From the sequence record PP430346: a stretch of DNA of 64,000 nt; one strand, given 5' to 3'. Made by a program: the position numbers and the translations under genes. This document shows positions 6,906 to 49,688 of the stretch, one piece after another. A model generated the notes under the pieces. That model was not told where the DNA came from, ran no database searches, and was given only the letters and a program-made list of their open reading frames with translations. Every line of letters begins with the position of its first letter. Position 1 is the first letter of the stretch. Source of the DNA: Escherichia phage vB_EcoM-LTH02.

Positions 6906-8258
6906 ATGTGGAATCCAATTGTTAATGTAGATATTACATTGAACACCGCAGGAACTACAAGAGAAGGTTTTGGGCTACCACTATTTTTAGCTTCAACAGA
7001 TAACTTTGAAGAAAGAGTCCGTGGTTACACTTCCTTAACTGAAGTTGCTGAAGATTTCGATGAGAATACTGCTGCATATAAGGCTGCTAAACAACTTTGG
7101 AGTCAAACTCCTAAAGTAACTCAGCTTTATATTGGTAGACGTGCTATGCAGTACACTGTATCAATTCCTGATGCCGTTACCGAAAGTACAGACTACTCAA
7201 TTACTGTAGCTGCTGGCGGTGGAATTTCTCAACCATATCAGTATACAGCAATAGAGTCAGATACTGCTGAAAAAGTATTGCAACAGTTTAAGACACAGAT
7301 TGAAGCTGACCCAACAATCAAAGATAAGGTTTCTGTGAACGTAACTGGTAGTGGTGCTTCTGCCACAATGATTATTACCAAAGCTGGTGATAATGACTTT
7401 GTGAAAGTAACAACCACAGCACAGACTGTATATATTGCAAGCACAACTGCTGATACAGCATCAACTGCTCTGGCAGCTATTGAAGCTTATTCAACTGACT
7501 GGTATTTCATTGCAGCAGAAGATAGAACTCAACAGTTTGTCTTAGCAATGGCTTCTGAGATTCAGGCTCGTAAGAAAATCTTCTTCACTGCTAACTCTGA
7601 TGTAGCAGCACTGCAAGGCACAGAATTAAACAGTGCAAATGATGTTCCAGCACAGCTTGCTAAGAACATGTACACCCGTACAGTTTGCTTGTGGCATCAC
7701 ACAGCAGCAGAAGACTATCCAGAGATGGCATACATTGCTTATGGTGCTCCATATGATGCAGGGTCAATTGCTTGGGGTAATGCTCAGTTGACTGGTGTAG
7801 CTGCTTCTCTACAGCCAGCTAATAAGAGACCTCTGACAAGTATTCAGAAGTCTGCTTTAGATGCACGTCACTGTAACTTTATTGACCTTGATGGTGGTGT
7901 TCCAGTGGTTCGTAGAGGGATTACTTCTGGTGGGGAATGGATTGACATCATCCGTGGTGTTGACTGGTTAGAATCAGACCTGAAAACTTCTCTGAGAGAC
8001 TTGCTAATTAACCAGAAGGGTGGTAAGATTACTTATGATGATACTGGTATTACTCGTATTCGTCAAGTCATTGAAACCTCTCTACAAAGAGCAGTCAACA
8101 GAAACTTCCTGTCATCTTACACAGTTAATGTTCCTAAAGCCTCTCAAGTTGCTTTGGCAGACAAGAAAGCTCGTATCCTGAAAGATGTTACCTTCGCAGG
8201 TATCTTAGCAGGTGCTATCTTGGATGTTGACTTGAAAGGTACAGTGGCTTACGAATAA
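6906..8258 (+). CDS. Tail sheath protein
   Basis: 450-aa ORF followed by a ~150-aa ORF, a chaperone pair and the tape measure gene: the canonical contractile-tail order sheath-tube-chaperones-TMP. Confidence 0.5.
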   Translation: MWNPIVNVDITLNTAGTTREGFGLPLFLASTDNFEERVRGYTSLTEVAEDFDENTAAYKAAKQLWSQTPKVTQLYIGRRAMQYTVSIPDAVTESTDYSITVAAGGGISQPYQYTAIESDTAEKVLQQFKTQIEADPTIKDKVSVNVTGSGASATMIITKAGDNDFVKVTTTAQTVYIASTTADTASTALAAIEAYSTDWYFIAAEDRTQQFVLAMASEIQARKKIFFTANSDVAALQGTELNSANDVPAQLAKNMYTRTVCLWHHTAAEDYPEMAYIAYGAPYDAGSIAWGNAQLTGVAASLQPANKRPLTSIQKSALDARHCNFIDLDGGVPVVRRGITSGGEWIDIIRGVDWLESDLKTSLRDLLINQKGGKITYDDTGITRIRQVIETSLQRAVNRNFLSSYTVNVPKASQVALADKKARILKDVTFAGILAGAILDVDLKGTVAYE

Positions 8259-8273
8259 TAGAGGTAAATTGGA

Positions 8274-8720
8274 ATGGCTATGTATCAGCAATATTCCCCT
8301 AAAGACGTTGTATGTAGCTGGAATGGTATTGCCATTGAAGGCTTTGCCCCAGACTCATTCTTACGTCTACAGAGAACATCACCGCTTATCACACCAGTTG
8401 TAGGTGCGGGTGGTCAGGTTGCTCTGACAAGAAATGCAGACAAGACAGGTACTATTGAGATTGAGCTAATGCAGACTTCTCTCTCTAATCAGATGCTTTC
8501 TGCAATTCAAGCTAAACAAGACAATATGGAACTTGAAGAAGATATCTCTTCTAACTTCGTAATCTACGACCCATCAGGCTCTGTTCTGGCAACTGGTATC
8601 AATGCTTGGTTGCAGGAACTACCACAGATTGAACTTGGTCGTGACCAGAACTCTAAAACTTGGATTTTTGGTTGTGAGAAGCTAGACTACACTTCTACAA
8701 TTCCAGCGTCAAGTGTTTAA
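8274..8720 (+). CDS. Tail tube protein
   Basis: 148-aa ORF directly after the sheath candidate, followed by a strong terminator; positional. Confidence 0.5.
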   Translation: MAMYQQYSPKDVVCSWNGIAIEGFAPDSFLRLQRTSPLITPVVGAGGQVALTRNADKTGTIEIELMQTSLSNQMLSAIQAKQDNMELEEDISSNFVIYDPSGSVLATGINAWLQELPQIELGRDQNSKTWIFGCEKLDYTSTIPASSV

Positions 8721-8732
8721 TAAATCCTATAA

Positions 8733-8766
8733 GGGGGAGACTTTAAAAGGTCTTCCCCTTTTTTGT
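8733..8766 (+). terminator. Rho-independent terminator after tail tube gene
   Basis: GC stem GGGGAGAC/GTCTTCCCC with loop TTTAAAAG followed by TTTTTTGTTTCTTTT. Confidence 0.55.
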
Positions 8767-8793
8767 TTCTTTTAAAAGTATTAAGGAATCACA

Positions 8794-9192
8794 ATGAAAA
8801 CAGAATCTAGAGTAATTAATGGTAAGAAAGTAAATATCGTTCTGCTTGGGGCAAGAGATGGTATTAAGATGTCTATGAAGTTGGGTAAAATTGTTGTTCC
8901 AACTTTTGCACAGATGCTATCAAGTCTGACTGATAAAGATAAGAAAGAAGCTCCAATGGTTCCATTTAAAGAACTTGTTGAAGCTTGTTTTGACAGAATT
9001 GAAGAAATTAACCTTGAAGAAATGGCTACCCTGTTATTTCAAGGGGCAACTGTTGATGACTTCCCACTTAATATTGATACATACTTCCAAGCAAACTATG
9101 GTGAATTTATTGATTACTTAGCATTTGCGCTGGAGGCAAATTTCGGAAGTTTTTTCGAAGCAAGCATTTTCAAAAGCCTAACTTCTCAGTAA
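8794..9192 (+). CDS. Tail assembly chaperone (frame-0 product, G-like)
   Basis: 132-aa ORF between tube and tape measure genes; contains slippery heptamer near its 3' end. Confidence 0.55.
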   Translation: MKTESRVINGKKVNIVLLGARDGIKMSMKLGKIVVPTFAQMLSSLTDKDKKEAPMVPFKELVEACFDRIEEINLEEMATLLFQGATVDDFPLNIDTYFQANYGEFIDYLAFALEANFGSFFEASIFKSLTSQ

Positions 9193-9433
9193 ACATGGGT
9201 AACACTCTACAGACACCACTGACTGATGCTGCTGTAGAGGCAACCTATGAAGAAGCAGACGAGATGAAATTTGTGCTTGCTATTTATGGTATGGAAGGGT
9301 GTAAAGAAACACTTGACCAACTCTTTGCTATGACATTCTCTGATTTATTATCATTGAGACAATTTCTTGAAATTCAGAGGTCGTATAAAGAGGAAATTGC
9401 TTACAACGAACTTAGAAGAGCAGGAAAAATGTA

Positions 9434-9434
<1 letters not shown>
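8794..9434 (+). CDS. Tail assembly chaperone -1 frameshift fusion product (GT-like), join 8794..9156 + 9156..9434
   Basis: After a -1 slip at T_TTT_TTC (9150-9156) the reading frame runs without stop into the downstream 79-aa ORF (9195-9434), which ends 1 nt before the tape measure start. Confidence 0.5.
9150..9156 (+). other. Programmed -1 ribosomal frameshift slippery site T_TTT_TTC
   Basis: Heptamer is in the X_XXY_YYZ register of the upstream ORF (codons TTT 9151-9153, TTC 9154-9156); -1 frame is open to 9434. Confidence 0.5.
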
Positions 9435-17450
<8,016 letters not shown>

Positions 17451-48638: not shown

Positions 48639-49124
48639 ATGAATTACATGGAGATTCGACCATTTGACACAGCTAATGGTGAAGGGGTTCGTGTAAGCCT
48701 CTTCGTAGCTGGCTGTAAACATCACTGTGAAGGCTGCTTTAACAGGGAGTCTTGGAAGTTTAATGCTGGTAAAGTGTTTACTTATGCAAACCTTTACGGC
48801 ATCATTAAGTTAATGGATGATAATGCTATCAGTGGGCTGTCAATACTTGGTGGGGAGCCTCTGGATGACAGAAACATTCAAGAGGTCACCAACATATGCA
48901 AGCGTATCAAAACTGTTTATCCAGAAAAGTCTATATGGCTTTGGACAGGTTTTCAGTTACATGAAAAAATCCACTTAGATGTGATGAAATATGTTGACGT
49001 GGTGGTTGATGGTAAGTATGATTCTTCTAAACCAACAGTTAAACCATATCGTGGTTCTGATAACCAAAACCTCTGGAGAAAAGAGTATGGGTGGCAAGGT
49101 GACTGTCAATGGCGAGCAGAGTGA
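48639..49124 (+). CDS. nrdG: Anaerobic RNR activating enzyme (radical SAM)
   Basis: CxxxCxxC cluster (GCKHHCEGCFN) near the N-terminus; adjacent to nrdD. Confidence 0.75.
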   Translation: MNYMEIRPFDTANGEGVRVSLFVAGCKHHCEGCFNRESWKFNAGKVFTYANLYGIIKLMDDNAISGLSILGGEPLDDRNIQEVTNICKRIKTVYPEKSIWLWTGFQLHEKIHLDVMKYVDVVVDGKYDSSKPTVKPYRGSDNQNLWRKEYGWQGDCQWRAE

Positions 49125-49161
49125 ATCTCGTCGTAAAATTGGCTACGGAAAAGGTGAGATA

Positions 49162-49464
49162 ATGATTATCTCTTTTAATAGTGCTTTATTAGGCACTTAT
49201 AAGGTTAAGACTGAACTCCTTAATGAGTGGAAAAAGTATACAAACTCACTTTTTGGTAATGTTGGAATGGAAGCCTTAGCAGAGATTGAGAAGGCTGGAA
49301 CATTCGAAGTTGTTGGTAAAGGCCACTTTACAATGTTCTACAAAACAAATTTAAACGTTGGTGACAGTGTTGTTGGTGTCACTGAAGAAGAACTCAAAAC
49401 ATTTTGTGAAAAGATTGAGAGAGATACTAAATGGGAATCTGGAATAGTTTTAAATCAAAAGTAA
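49162..49464 (+). CDS. Hypothetical protein (track start 48991 lies inside nrdG)
   Basis: ATG at 49162 preceded by AAGGTGAG. Confidence 0.3.
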   Translation: MIISFNSALLGTYKVKTELLNEWKKYTNSLFGNVGMEALAEIEKAGTFEVVGKGHFTMFYKTNLNVGDSVVGVTEEELKTFCEKIERDTKWESGIVLNQK

Positions 49465-49688
49465 AAGCAGCACTGGCATCACTAGGTATGCTTACTGGTG
49501 TGGATGTGACTCATCTAATGCAGAACTTCAAGATGGATGAGAAGCTGGCTAATGAGATTATGAAAAGCATCTATGTAGGTCGTGGAAAAGGTGGTAAAAA
49601 ACAAGCACATCGACCAACTGGTGCAGCAGCAATTAAACGTGCAGCTAAAAAAGCTCGTAACCGTAAACGTAACAAGAAGGCTAAATAA
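49431..49688 (+). CDS. Small protein with highly basic C-terminus
   Basis: C-terminus KRAAKKARNRKRNKKAK. Confidence 0.3.
   Translation: MGIWNSFKSKVKAALASLGMLTGVDVTHLMQNFKMDEKLANEIMKSIYVGRGKGGKKQAHRPTGAAAIKRAAKKARNRKRNKKAK

What the first reader, a model, noticed from the sequence alone, without database searches (positions are those of the whole stretch)
9150..9156. Canonical -1 programmed frameshift site in the tail assembly chaperone pair
The heptamer T_TTT_TTC lies in the exact X_XXY_YYZ register of ORF 8794-9192, 12 codons before its stop. The -1 frame from this point is open and in phase with the downstream ORF 9195-9434, which ends 1 nt before the tape measure gene. This reproduces the conserved G/GT-type chaperone frameshift of tailed phages and independently supports the tail-module annotation; the fused product would be about 213 aa.
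Basis: partly seen in the sequence, partly recalled or inferred. Interest (0 to 1): 0.5.

Follow-up and report, generated by a model that had tools for sequence, protein, structure and literature searches.

The report
Phage tail chaperone -1 frameshift site
This is the expected "slippery" site at which some ribosomes shift back one base to make a longer version of a tail-assembly helper protein in a Felix O1-like phage. It is real and strongly conserved, but already annotated in sister phages, so it is ordinary.

Summary
T_TTT_TTC lies at 9150-9156 in exact X_XXY_YYZ register of ORF 8794-9192. The -1 frame is open from there to 9434, giving a 213-aa fusion.

The window is a Felixounavirus (Felix O1-like myophage). 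The gene order is sheath, tube, chaperone G (Pfam Phage_TAC_15), T segment, tape measure.

Comparative evidence for a programmed -1 frameshift is strong:
- The heptamer T_TTT_TTY sits on the same Ser/Thr-Phe-Phe codons in eight lineages, down to about 22-25% protein identity.
- Each lineage has a 91-98-aa -1 extension.
- In most distant lineages that extension has no start codon for its first 39-62 codons.
- The site is the nucleotide-conservation peak of the locus.
- A Buttiauxella prophage that lacks the heptamer encodes a G-paralogue plus T as one ordinary ORF, and this ORF aligns across the predicted junction.

No conserved stimulatory RNA structure was found.

The same slip is already annotated and published for Citrobacter phages Moogle, Michonne and Mijalis. 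My predicted Moogle fusion equals YP_009145710.1 exactly. The sampled Felixounavirus records still list two separate genes.

No direct protein evidence for the fusion exists. Sf14 virion mass spectrometry detected the T-frame ORF but not G, so an additional stand-alone T product stays possible.

Verdict: supported, already known, low interest.

The parts
8274..8720 (+). Tail tube gene; marks the upstream boundary of the chaperone slot
   Evidence: PF11681 and phrog_280. The homologue is the tube protein in the Sf14 and Bas63 virion structures.
8794..9192 (+). Chaperone gene 'G' (132 aa), the 0-frame product
   Evidence: PF21822 Phage_TAC_15, E 1.2e-19. phrog_1613, E 7.9e-49.
9132..9136 (+). 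GGAGG, a candidate Shine-Dalgarno-like stimulator 13 nt 5' of the heptamer (inferred, inconclusive)
   Evidence: GGAG lies 11-14 nt upstream in the Felixounavirus/Suspvirus/Mooglevirus clade, L050, L038 and L039/L040/L042. It is absent in phiEa21-4, Yersinia P778, L048 and L041. The GAG codon is the minor Glu codon here (26%). It also encodes the conserved Leu-Glu.
9138..9144 (+). Second in-register heptamer A_AAT_TTC; not conserved and probably incidental
   Evidence: It reads AAACTTC in Felix O1, ekra and Moogle.
9150..9156 (+). Slippery heptamer T_TTT_TTC, the proposed -1 shift site
   Evidence: In register. Conserved as T_TTT_TTY in 8 lineages. U_UU.U_UU.C is a frameshift-prone motif in E. 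coli (PMC4066793).
9148..9178 (+). Nucleotide-conservation peak around and 3' of the heptamer (AGTTTTTTCGAnGCAAGCwTTTTCAAAAnCC)
   Evidence: 97% identity to phiEa21-4 in the 30-nt window starting at 9148, against 52% overall. It holds the longest invariant runs of the locus.
9156..9192 (+). Dual-coding overlap: the 0 frame encodes the G C-terminus and the -1 frame encodes the GT linker (RSKHFQKPNFSV)
   Evidence: K124 and P129 of the fusion are at least 90% conserved across 10 lineages.
9156..9434 (+). T segment, -1 frame: 92 codons plus the stop. It contains the annotated ORF 9195-9434.
   Evidence: phrog_4963, E 4.8e-55, over residues 14-92. Homologous -1 segments of 91-98 aa occur in all lineages.
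8794..9434 (+). Composite GT coding region (8794-9156 joined to 9156-9434), predicted 213-aa fusion
   Evidence: The same construction on Moogle reproduces the deposited YP_009145710.1 exactly.
9434..11662 (+). Tape measure protein gene; its ATG overlaps the T stop codon (TAATG)
   Evidence: PF20155 TMP_3 and phrog_4036. Sequence.

Best explanation
This is a programmed -1 ribosomal frameshift in the tail assembly chaperone gene of a Felixounavirus.

Most ribosomes translate 8794-9192 into the 132-aa chaperone G. A minority pause with tRNA-Phe on UUU (P site) and UUC (A site) of U_UUU_UUC at 9150-9156. Both tRNAs slip back one base onto UUU_UUU. Decoding then resumes at CGA (9156) in the -1 frame and runs to 9434, giving a 213-aa GT protein (...NFGSFF|RSKHFQKPNF...).

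By analogy with lambda gpG/gpGT and P2 E/E+E', the shared G domain is expected to coat the tape measure protein encoded immediately downstream. The T domain, present at a low fixed ratio, would recruit the tube protein so that the tail polymerises to the right length.

What is shown here: the site, its register, the open frame, the conservation, and the homology of the T segment. What is inferred: the slip itself, its efficiency, and the functions of the two domains.

No 3' RNA structure appears to be needed. An upstream GGAGG may contribute.
For: 1. Identity and position. The window is a Felix O1-like phage. G is a PF21822 chaperone between the tube and tape measure genes.

2. Exact register and a 92-codon open -1 frame. 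By chance, P is about 6e-6.

3. Heptamer conservation. T_TTT_TTY lies on the homologous Ser/Thr-Phe-Phe codons in eight lineages: Felixounavirus/Suspvirus/Mooglevirus, Yersinia P778, Kolesnikvirus, L048/L049, L050, L038, L039/L040/L042 and L041. Fusion-protein identity to the window falls to 22-25%. From codon usage, the chance of slippery encoding is about 0.30 per lineage, or about 6e-5 for eight independent lineages.

4. Start codons. The -1 segment is 91-98 aa everywhere. It has no ATG, GTG or TTG for its first 39-62 codons in phiEa21-4, L039-L042, L048 and L050. Gene callers leave the stretch empty in L048-L050, and the depositors annotated no gene there in phiEa21-4. In those phages it can only be reached by frameshifting.

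5. In the window, ATG 9195 has no Shine-Dalgarno sequence.

6. The 30 nt from 9148 are the nucleotide-identity peak of the locus. This is also the only stretch that blastn still finds in the Erwinia phages.

7. The -1-frame residues upstream of ATG 9195 are conserved: K124 and P129 at 90% or more.

8. A Buttiauxella prophage encodes Ser-Phe-Phe as TCA TTC TTC, which is not slippery. It carries instead a single 201-aa ORF made of a G paralogue (E 7e-10) plus a T homologue (E 9e-7). This ORF aligns colinearly across the window's junction (E 5e-13).

9. The Moogle record has a joined CDS. My predicted fusion at this heptamer equals YP_009145710.1 residue for residue, and Michonne has one too. The frameshift is stated in the Moogle and Mijalis genome announcements.

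10. U_UU.U_UU.C is among the efficient, under-represented -1 motifs in E. coli (PMC4066793).

11. P2, another coliphage with a contractile tail, uses TTTTTTG without a hairpin (PMC3091744).
Against: - I found no direct protein evidence for the fusion in any Ounavirinae phage.
- No stimulatory structure was detected. Local folds are not better than shuffles (z -1.76 and +0.94). The six-sequence consensus fold is only -3.6 kcal/mol with nothing paired within 32 nt of the site. There is no Rfam match.
- In this clade an ATG lies 2 nt after the G stop codon, so termination-reinitiation could also make a free 79-aa T.
- Sf14 virion mass spectrometry lists the T-frame ORF (gp42) as detected and G (gp41) as not detected (PMC11821841). 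A GT fusion does not predict that pattern in a simple way.
- The exact 213-aa fusion is absent from a 15-billion-protein collection, and no fusion-length hit appeared among 92 homologues. This reflects annotation practice, not biology.
Confidence: 0.88

Rival explanations
1. No frameshift occurs. ORF 9195-9434 is an ordinary separate gene translated from its own ATG, for example by termination-reinitiation after the G stop 2 nt upstream. This is how most GenBank records annotate it.
For: - ATG 9195 exists. An ATG lies close to the G stop codon throughout the Felixounavirus/Suspvirus/Mooglevirus clade.
- Five sampled Felixounavirus records, one Suspvirus record and one Mooglevirus record (Sf16) annotate two separate CDSs.
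- Sf14 particle mass spectrometry detected the T ORF but not G.
Against: - There is no Shine-Dalgarno sequence before ATG 9195.
- The position of the ATG is not conserved. The Moogle ATG aligns with CTA in the window.
- phiEa21-4, L039-L042, L048 and L050 have no start codon for 39-62 codons of the homologous segment.
- Residues encoded upstream of the ATG in the -1 frame are conserved, including in a single-ORF homologue.
- This reading does not explain the conservation of the heptamer.

A free T made in addition to GT is not excluded. I put that at about 0.3.
Confidence: 0.05
2. The frame change is made at the RNA level. RNA polymerase slips on the T6 run (T7 in distant relatives) and adds one extra U. 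A subset of mRNAs then encode GT in a single frame.
For: The conserved element is a homopolymeric T run. The sequence data cannot separate slippage by the polymerase from slippage by the ribosome.
Against: - From general knowledge, productive transcriptional slippage in E. coli needs runs of about 8-9 or more A or T. Here the run never exceeds 7 in any lineage.
- The run is always kept in the tandem-slippage register. The third base of the preceding codon is T although Ser or Thr could end otherwise.
- U_UU.U_UU.C is an experimentally frameshift-prone motif for ribosomes in E. coli.
Confidence: 0.04
3. The shift takes place mainly at the upstream heptamer A_AAT_TTC (9138-9144) rather than at T_TTT_TTC.
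For: It is in register and opens the same -1 frame for 96 codons.
Against: - It is specific to this genome. Felix O1, ekra and Moogle have AAACTTC, and L005, L028 and L030 have TAATTTC.
- All distant lineages conserve only the T run.
- The deposited Moogle product is joined at the T run.
Confidence: 0.02
4. The heptamer is a chance by-product of a conserved Phe-Phe motif in an AT-rich genome, and no functional fusion is made.
For: - In-register heptamers are common: 45 in the window's long ORFs.
- Ser-Phe-Phe is a conserved protein motif.
Against: - Slippery codon choice is retained in 8 lineages (P about 6e-5).
- A 92-codon open -1 frame has P of about 6e-6.
- The -1 segment is homologous across lineages.
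- The one relative with non-slippery codons carries a separate G'T gene.
Confidence: 0.01

Closest known systems
Tape measure chaperone frameshift annotated in Citrobacter phages Moogle, Michonne and Mijalis (Mooglevirus, Ounavirinae)
   Same: - It is the homologous gene pair, about 80% nucleotide identity.
- The heptamer T_TTT_TTC and the 3' context are identical.
- The position between the tube and tape measure genes is the same.
- The deposited 212-aa product equals the fusion predicted by slipping at this heptamer.
- It is reported in genome announcements.
   Different: - These phages belong to a different genus.
- G has 14 rather than 11 codons after the site.
- The downstream ATG sits at a different codon.
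- The annotation there is also a prediction, not an experiment.
- The sampled Felixounavirus records lack the joined CDS.
Phage lambda gpG/gpGT (Levin, Hendrix & Casjens 1993; Xu, Hendrix & Duda 2004, 2013, 2014)
   Same: - There are two overlapping ORFs between the major tail gene and the tape measure gene.
[quoted passage not shown]
- The product is a low-abundance fusion with a T extension.
- No stimulatory structure is required.
- The functional model (G binds the tape measure, T binds the tube protein) is summarised in PMC5009743.
   Different: - Lambda uses G_GGA_AAG (from my own knowledge) and is a siphophage.
- I found no detectable sequence similarity to this G, which falls in Pfam PF21822.
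- Lambda's frameshift, its ratio of about 30:1 and its requirement for assembly are proven experimentally. Here none of these is.
Phage P2 E / E+E' (Christie et al. 2002)
   Same: - It is a contractile-tailed coliphage.
- The -1 slip is on a T6 heptamer (TTTTTTG).
- It has no downstream hairpin.
- The short product is 91 aa and the extended product 142 aa (PMC3091744).
   Different: - The last base of the heptamer differs (G instead of C).
- The proteins are smaller and belong to a different family.
- P2's frameshift is demonstrated experimentally.
E. coli dnaX -1 frameshift
   Same: A Shine-Dalgarno-like element about 10 nt upstream of a heptamer stimulates -1 shifting. Here GGAGG lies 13 nt upstream, within the 6-17 nt range used by Sharma et al..
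   Different: - dnaX uses A_AAA_AAG plus a strong 3' hairpin and gives a shorter product.
- Here the Shine-Dalgarno-like element is only partly conserved, and no hairpin was found.

Membership tests
G/GT-type tail assembly chaperone programmed frameshift (Xu, Hendrix & Duda 2004) | Two overlapping or abutting ORFs lie between the major tail (tube) gene and the tape measure gene | tested here: met
   Tube 8274-8720, G 8794-9192, T 9156/9195-9434, tape measure 9434-11662.
G/GT-type tail assembly chaperone programmed frameshift (Xu, Hendrix & Duda 2004) | [quoted passage not shown] | tested here: met
   T_TTT_TTC at 9150-9156, with 11 sense codons before the stop. The -1 frame is open to 9434.
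G/GT-type tail assembly chaperone programmed frameshift (Xu, Hendrix & Duda 2004) | The slippery sequence and the two-frame arrangement are conserved among diverged relatives | tested here: met
   Eight lineages, with fusion-protein identity down to 22-25%. This is the nucleotide-conservation peak of the locus.
G/GT-type tail assembly chaperone programmed frameshift (Xu, Hendrix & Duda 2004) | The second ORF lacks its own translation initiation signals | tested here: inconclusive
   In the window an ATG is present at 9195 with no Shine-Dalgarno sequence, 2 nt after the G stop. In phiEa21-4, L039-L042, L048 and L050 there is no start codon for 39-62 codons.
G/GT-type tail assembly chaperone programmed frameshift (Xu, Hendrix & Duda 2004) | The fusion protein is detected, is made at a low fixed ratio, and is required for tail assembly | not testable with these tools
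   I found no publication that shows it for Ounavirinae. Sf14 particle mass spectrometry lists only the T ORF as detected.
Pfam PF21822 Phage_TAC_15 (tail assembly chaperone) | The score exceeds the curated gathering threshold | tested here: met
   71.5 bits against a cut-off of 22, E 1.2e-19, residues 9-124 on profile positions 1-124 of 127.
-1 frameshift sites with a 3' stimulatory RNA structure (IS3, dnaX or coronavirus type) | A stable, conserved hairpin or pseudoknot lies 5-9 nt after the heptamer | tested here: not met
   (consensus -3.6 kcal/mol, nothing paired within 32 nt). There is no Rfam match.
-1 frameshift sites with a 5' Shine-Dalgarno-like stimulator (dnaX type) | A conserved Shine-Dalgarno-like sequence lies 6-17 nt upstream of the motif | tested here: inconclusive
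   GGAGG at 9132-9136, with a 13-nt spacer. GGAG is present in roughly half of the independent lineages. It is confounded by the conserved Leu-Glu/Arg-Glu codons.

The most novel reading that the evidence does not exclude
In Felix O1-like phages the T-frame polypeptide may not be only a transient assembly factor. It could be made, at least in part, as a free 75-79-aa protein from the ATG next to the G stop codon, in addition to GT. It or GT could also remain in the virion.

This would fit the detection of Sf14 gp42 (T ORF) but not gp41 (G) in purified particles (PMC11821841). Both Sf14 and Bas63 show an unassigned, helix-rich trimeric density at the tail tip (PMC12609058). I did not test any link between that density and T. 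It is speculation.
Probability: 0.12. Interest if true: 0.4.

Novelty: already known. Interest (0 to 1): 0.15.

Why it matters
The practical value is mainly for annotation. All five Felixounavirus records I inspected, plus Suspvirus mistaenkt and Mooglevirus Sf16, list two separate small genes. phiEa21-4 lists nothing for the T segment. The 213-aa fusion of this phage is absent from a 15-billion-protein collection. Adding the joined CDS would correct these records.

Biologically it confirms that the G/GT strategy extends across the Ounavirinae and their distant relatives with one very stable site, T_TTT_TTY on Ser/Thr-Phe-Phe.

The Buttiauxella prophage is a neat natural control. It replaces the frameshift with a duplicated G domain fused to T in an ordinary gene. 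This shows that the fusion architecture is what selection maintains.

Tried and rejected
- **3' stimulatory RNA.** Single-sequence folds of 9157-9206 and 9157-9260 were no better than shuffles. A six-sequence consensus fold gave -3.6 kcal/mol. The Rfam scan found nothing relevant. Rejected.
- **Upstream heptamer A_AAT_TTC at 9138 as the real site.** Rejected because it is not conserved.
- **The other long -1 opening in the window (TTTAAAT at 49449).** It is an ordinary overlap with a gene that has its own ATG at 49431.
- **Search for fusion-length homologues of the 213-aa product.** All 92 hits were G-only proteins of 124-136 aa. An exact look-up then showed that the Moogle fusion is deposited but the window's is not.
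- **Structure prediction of the fusion.** I did not pursue G or T alone.
- **Solved structures.** No significant match.
- **Phage-encoded tRNAs that could affect decoding.** None in this window.
- **Literature search for protein-level evidence.** The wV8 proteome paper, the Bas63 cryo-EM paper and the Bas63 essentiality preprint say nothing about the chaperone pair. Only Table 1 of the Sf14 paper is informative. Its supplements held nothing further.
- **Shine-Dalgarno-like GGAGG upstream.** Left as inconclusive.

Full report
**Observation**

Direct reading of 8700-9560 and a script confirm every element of the finding.
- TTTTTTC occupies 9150-9156.
- In the frame of ORF 8794-9192, base 9150 is the third base of AGT, followed by TTT and TTC. 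This is the X_XXY_YYZ register.
- Eleven sense codons (EASIFKSLTSQ) and TAA follow.
- From 9156 the -1 frame is open for 92 codons, is in phase with ATG 9195, and stops at 9432-9434.
- The fusion is 213 aa.

There are two small corrections.
- The T stop codon overlaps the tape-measure ATG by one base (TAATG). It does not end one base before it.
- A second in-register heptamer, A_AAT_TTC at 9138, opens the same frame.

**Is it more than chance?**

A heptamer alone is not significant. The window's ORFs of at least 100 aa hold 45 in-register XXXYYYZ motifs in 20,717 codons.

The combination is far from chance.
- Only three of the 45 lead into a -1 frame of 50 aa or more. Two are in this gene. The third (49449) is a plain overlap with a gene that has its own start.
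- Stops occur at 0.122 per codon in the -1 frame of the neighbouring tail genes, so 92 open codons has P of about 6e-6.
- Of four Phe-Phe dipeptides in the tail module, only this one is encoded in slippery form.

**What the locus is**

The window is a Felix O1-like myophage. 258 phage records match 8200-9700, most at 95-99% identity, and nearly all are Felixounavirus.

The gene order is as follows.

| Coordinates | Gene | Family evidence |
|---|---|---|
| 6906-8258 | Sheath | phrog_205 |
| 8274-8720 | Tube | PF11681 |
| 8794-9192 | Chaperone G | PF21822 Phage_TAC_15, 71.5 bits against a cut-off of 22; phrog_1613 |
| 9195-9434 | Annotated T ORF | phrog_4963 'tail assembly chaperone' |
| 9434-11662 | Tape measure | PF20155 |
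| downstream | Baseplate genes | |

A terminator-like hairpin at 8731-8760, followed by a T tract to about 8770, separates the tube gene from G.

**Comparative evidence**

I collected the locus from:
- annotated records: ekra, Felix O1, mistaenkt, Moogle, Sf16, Yersinia P778 and phiEa21-4;
- 36 IMG/VR contigs;
- three contigs carrying intermediate homologues.

*Heptamer.* T_TTT_TTC, or T_TTT_TTT in the most distant set, sits on the homologous Ser/Thr-Phe-Phe codons in eight lineages. Their predicted fusion proteins are 76% to 22% identical to the window's. Using the codon usage of the window's tail genes (TTT is 56% of Phe codons; 54% of Ser codons end in T), slippery encoding has a probability of about 0.30 per lineage. 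For eight independent lineages that is about 6e-5.

*The -1 segment.* Every lineage has a -1 extension of 91-98 aa ending at or next to the tape measure start. In phiEa21-4, L039-L042, L048 and L050 this segment has no ATG, GTG or TTG for its first 39-62 codons. No gene is annotated or called there. In those phages it is reachable only by frameshifting.

*Nucleotide conservation.* The 30-nt window starting at 9148 is the identity peak of the whole G-T region in all four comparisons. It is 97% identical to phiEa21-4, against 52% overall. It is also the only piece that blastn still detects in the Erwinia phages.

*Junction peptide.* The -1-frame residues encoded upstream of ATG 9195 are conserved. 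K124 and P129 of the fusion are at least 90% conserved across ten aligned fusions.

**A natural control**

A prophage in Buttiauxella noackiae (L047) has a G homologue whose Ser-Phe-Phe is TCA TTC TTC, which is not slippery. Directly after it lies one ordinary 201-aa ORF.
- Its N-terminal part is a paralogue of the adjacent G (E 7e-10).
- Its C-terminal part is homologous to the window's -1-frame segment, starting at the third residue after the slip (E 9e-7).
- The whole ORF aligns colinearly with the predicted GT fusion across the junction (E 5e-13).

So where the frameshift is absent, a G-like domain fused to T is encoded conventionally. This is what one expects if the fusion protein is the selected product.

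**Mechanism**

The best-supported mechanism is tandem -1 slippage of tRNA-Phe on U_UUU_UUC.
- Sharma et al. 2014 (PMC4066793) place U_UU.U_UU.C within the efficient H_HH.U_UU.Y class in E. coli. It is also among the motifs that are under-represented in genes and that shift above 0.1% without a stimulator.
- I found no 3' stimulator. Local folds do not beat shuffles. The consensus fold of six diverged sequences is -3.6 kcal/mol with nothing paired in the first 32 nt. Rfam gives nothing. This matches P2 E/E+E', which slips on TTTTTTG without a hairpin (PMC3091744).
- The extended conservation of 9157-9178 is most simply explained by double coding: EASIFK in frame 0 and RSKHFQKP in frame -1.
- GGAGG lies 13 nt upstream. 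This is inside the 6-17 nt range used for Shine-Dalgarno-like stimulators. It recurs as GGAG in about half of the lineages, but it also encodes conserved residues. I leave it as inconclusive.

The functions are inferred from the lambda work summarised in PMC5009743: G coats the tape measure and T recruits the tube protein. They were not tested here.

**Rivals**

*Independent translation of T from ATG 9195.* This is how most records annotate the locus. It is mechanically possible by reinitiation, because the ATG lies 2 nt after the G stop. It gains some support from Sf14, where particle mass spectrometry lists the T ORF (gp42) as detected and G (gp41) as not detected (PMC11821841).

It cannot be the conserved mechanism, for three reasons.
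- Most lineages have no start codon there.
- The ATG is not conserved in position within the clade.
- Residues upstream of the ATG are conserved.

A free T made in addition to GT remains possible, at about 0.3.

*Other rivals.* Transcriptional slippage on T6/T7 cannot be excluded from sequence, but it is unlikely for so short a run. The 9138 heptamer is not conserved.

**Comparison with what is known, and novelty**

The phenomenon is the classic G/GT chaperone frameshift (Xu, Hendrix & Duda 2004). The same site has already been annotated in the sister genus Mooglevirus.
- The Moogle record carries a joined CDS.
- The fusion I predict by slipping at this heptamer is identical to the deposited YP_009145710.1. 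Michonne has a 212-aa product too.
- The Moogle and Mijalis genome announcements mention the frameshift.

In the Felixounavirus records I sampled the join is missing. The window's own 213-aa product is not in the protein collection.

I therefore rate the finding as correct and already known, with value mainly for annotation. No experimental demonstration exists for this phage group.

**Verdict**

| Item | Rating |
|---|---|
| Observation | Confirmed |
| Interpretation | Supported |
| Confidence in a programmed -1 ribosomal frameshift at 9150-9156 | About 0.88 |
| Novelty | Already known |
| Interest | 0.15 |

Noticed in passing
L047:2501-3486 (Buttiauxella noackiae JPRU01000001.1, prophage region): The G homologue encodes Ser-Phe-Phe with non-slippery codons (TCA TTC TTC). 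It is followed by a single 201-aa ORF made of a G paralogue plus a T homologue, then the tape measure gene. This is a frameshift-free way of making a GT-like protein. The genes upstream have no PHROG or Pfam hits.
   Followed up: partly
Literature: Shigella phage Sf14 gp41/gp42 (PMC11821841, Table 1): Virion mass spectrometry lists the T-frame ORF (gp42) as detected and the G ORF (gp41) as not detected. A chaperone pair that leaves the virion does not predict this pattern. The raw data (MassIVE MSV000096931) could be re-searched with the fusion sequence.
   Followed up: partly
window 8731-8770: A strong terminator-like hairpin (13 pairs, 8731-8760) followed by a T tract lies between the tube gene and the chaperone gene. 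It may reduce expression of the chaperone and tape measure genes relative to sheath and tube. The AYO145A record annotates a terminator in the matched stretch.
   Followed up: partly
window 9138-9144: A second in-register heptamer, A_AAT_TTC, lies 12 nt upstream of the conserved one and opens the same -1 frame. It is specific to this genome (AAACTTC in Felix O1, ekra and Moogle).
   Followed up: yes
window 49449-49455: T_TTA_AAT lies in register 2 codons before the stop of ORF 48991-49464, with a 77-aa open -1 frame. This is simply the overlap with the next gene, 49431-49688, which has its own ATG.
   Followed up: yes
L002:1270-1505 (Erwinia phage phiEa21-4, EU710883.1 37654-37889): The record has an unannotated 236-nt gap between gene 59 (G) and gene 60 (tape measure). 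The gap is the T segment, which has no start codon and was therefore never called.
   Followed up: yes
Public records of close relatives (e.g. LR597658 VpaE1_ev108, LR597663, phage C600M2): The features listed under the match in some records include 'Hc1 head closure protein' and 'Tc1 tail completion protein'. Named G-homologue proteins carry 'head closure protein' (C600M2) and 'Hc1 head...' (UniRef). This conflicts with the Pfam and PHROG chaperone assignment and with the gene's position.
   Followed up: no
L007:788-943, minus strand (Felix O1 AF320576.1 ORF157): The original Felix O1 record annotates a 51-aa ORF on the opposite strand that overlaps the start of the chaperone gene. It is probably spurious.
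   Followed up: no
L043:1469-1475 (IMG/VR 3300035050_000006, G+C-rich distant relative): This relative (25% identity) lacks the T run at the homologous position. It has an in-register C_CCT_TTC 54 codons before the stop, with a 111-aa open -1 frame. This may be a relocated slip site.
   Followed up: no
window 1-64000: ARAGORN finds no tRNA genes in this 64-kb window, although Felix O1-like genomes carry about 22-25. The tRNA cluster must lie outside the window.
   Followed up: no
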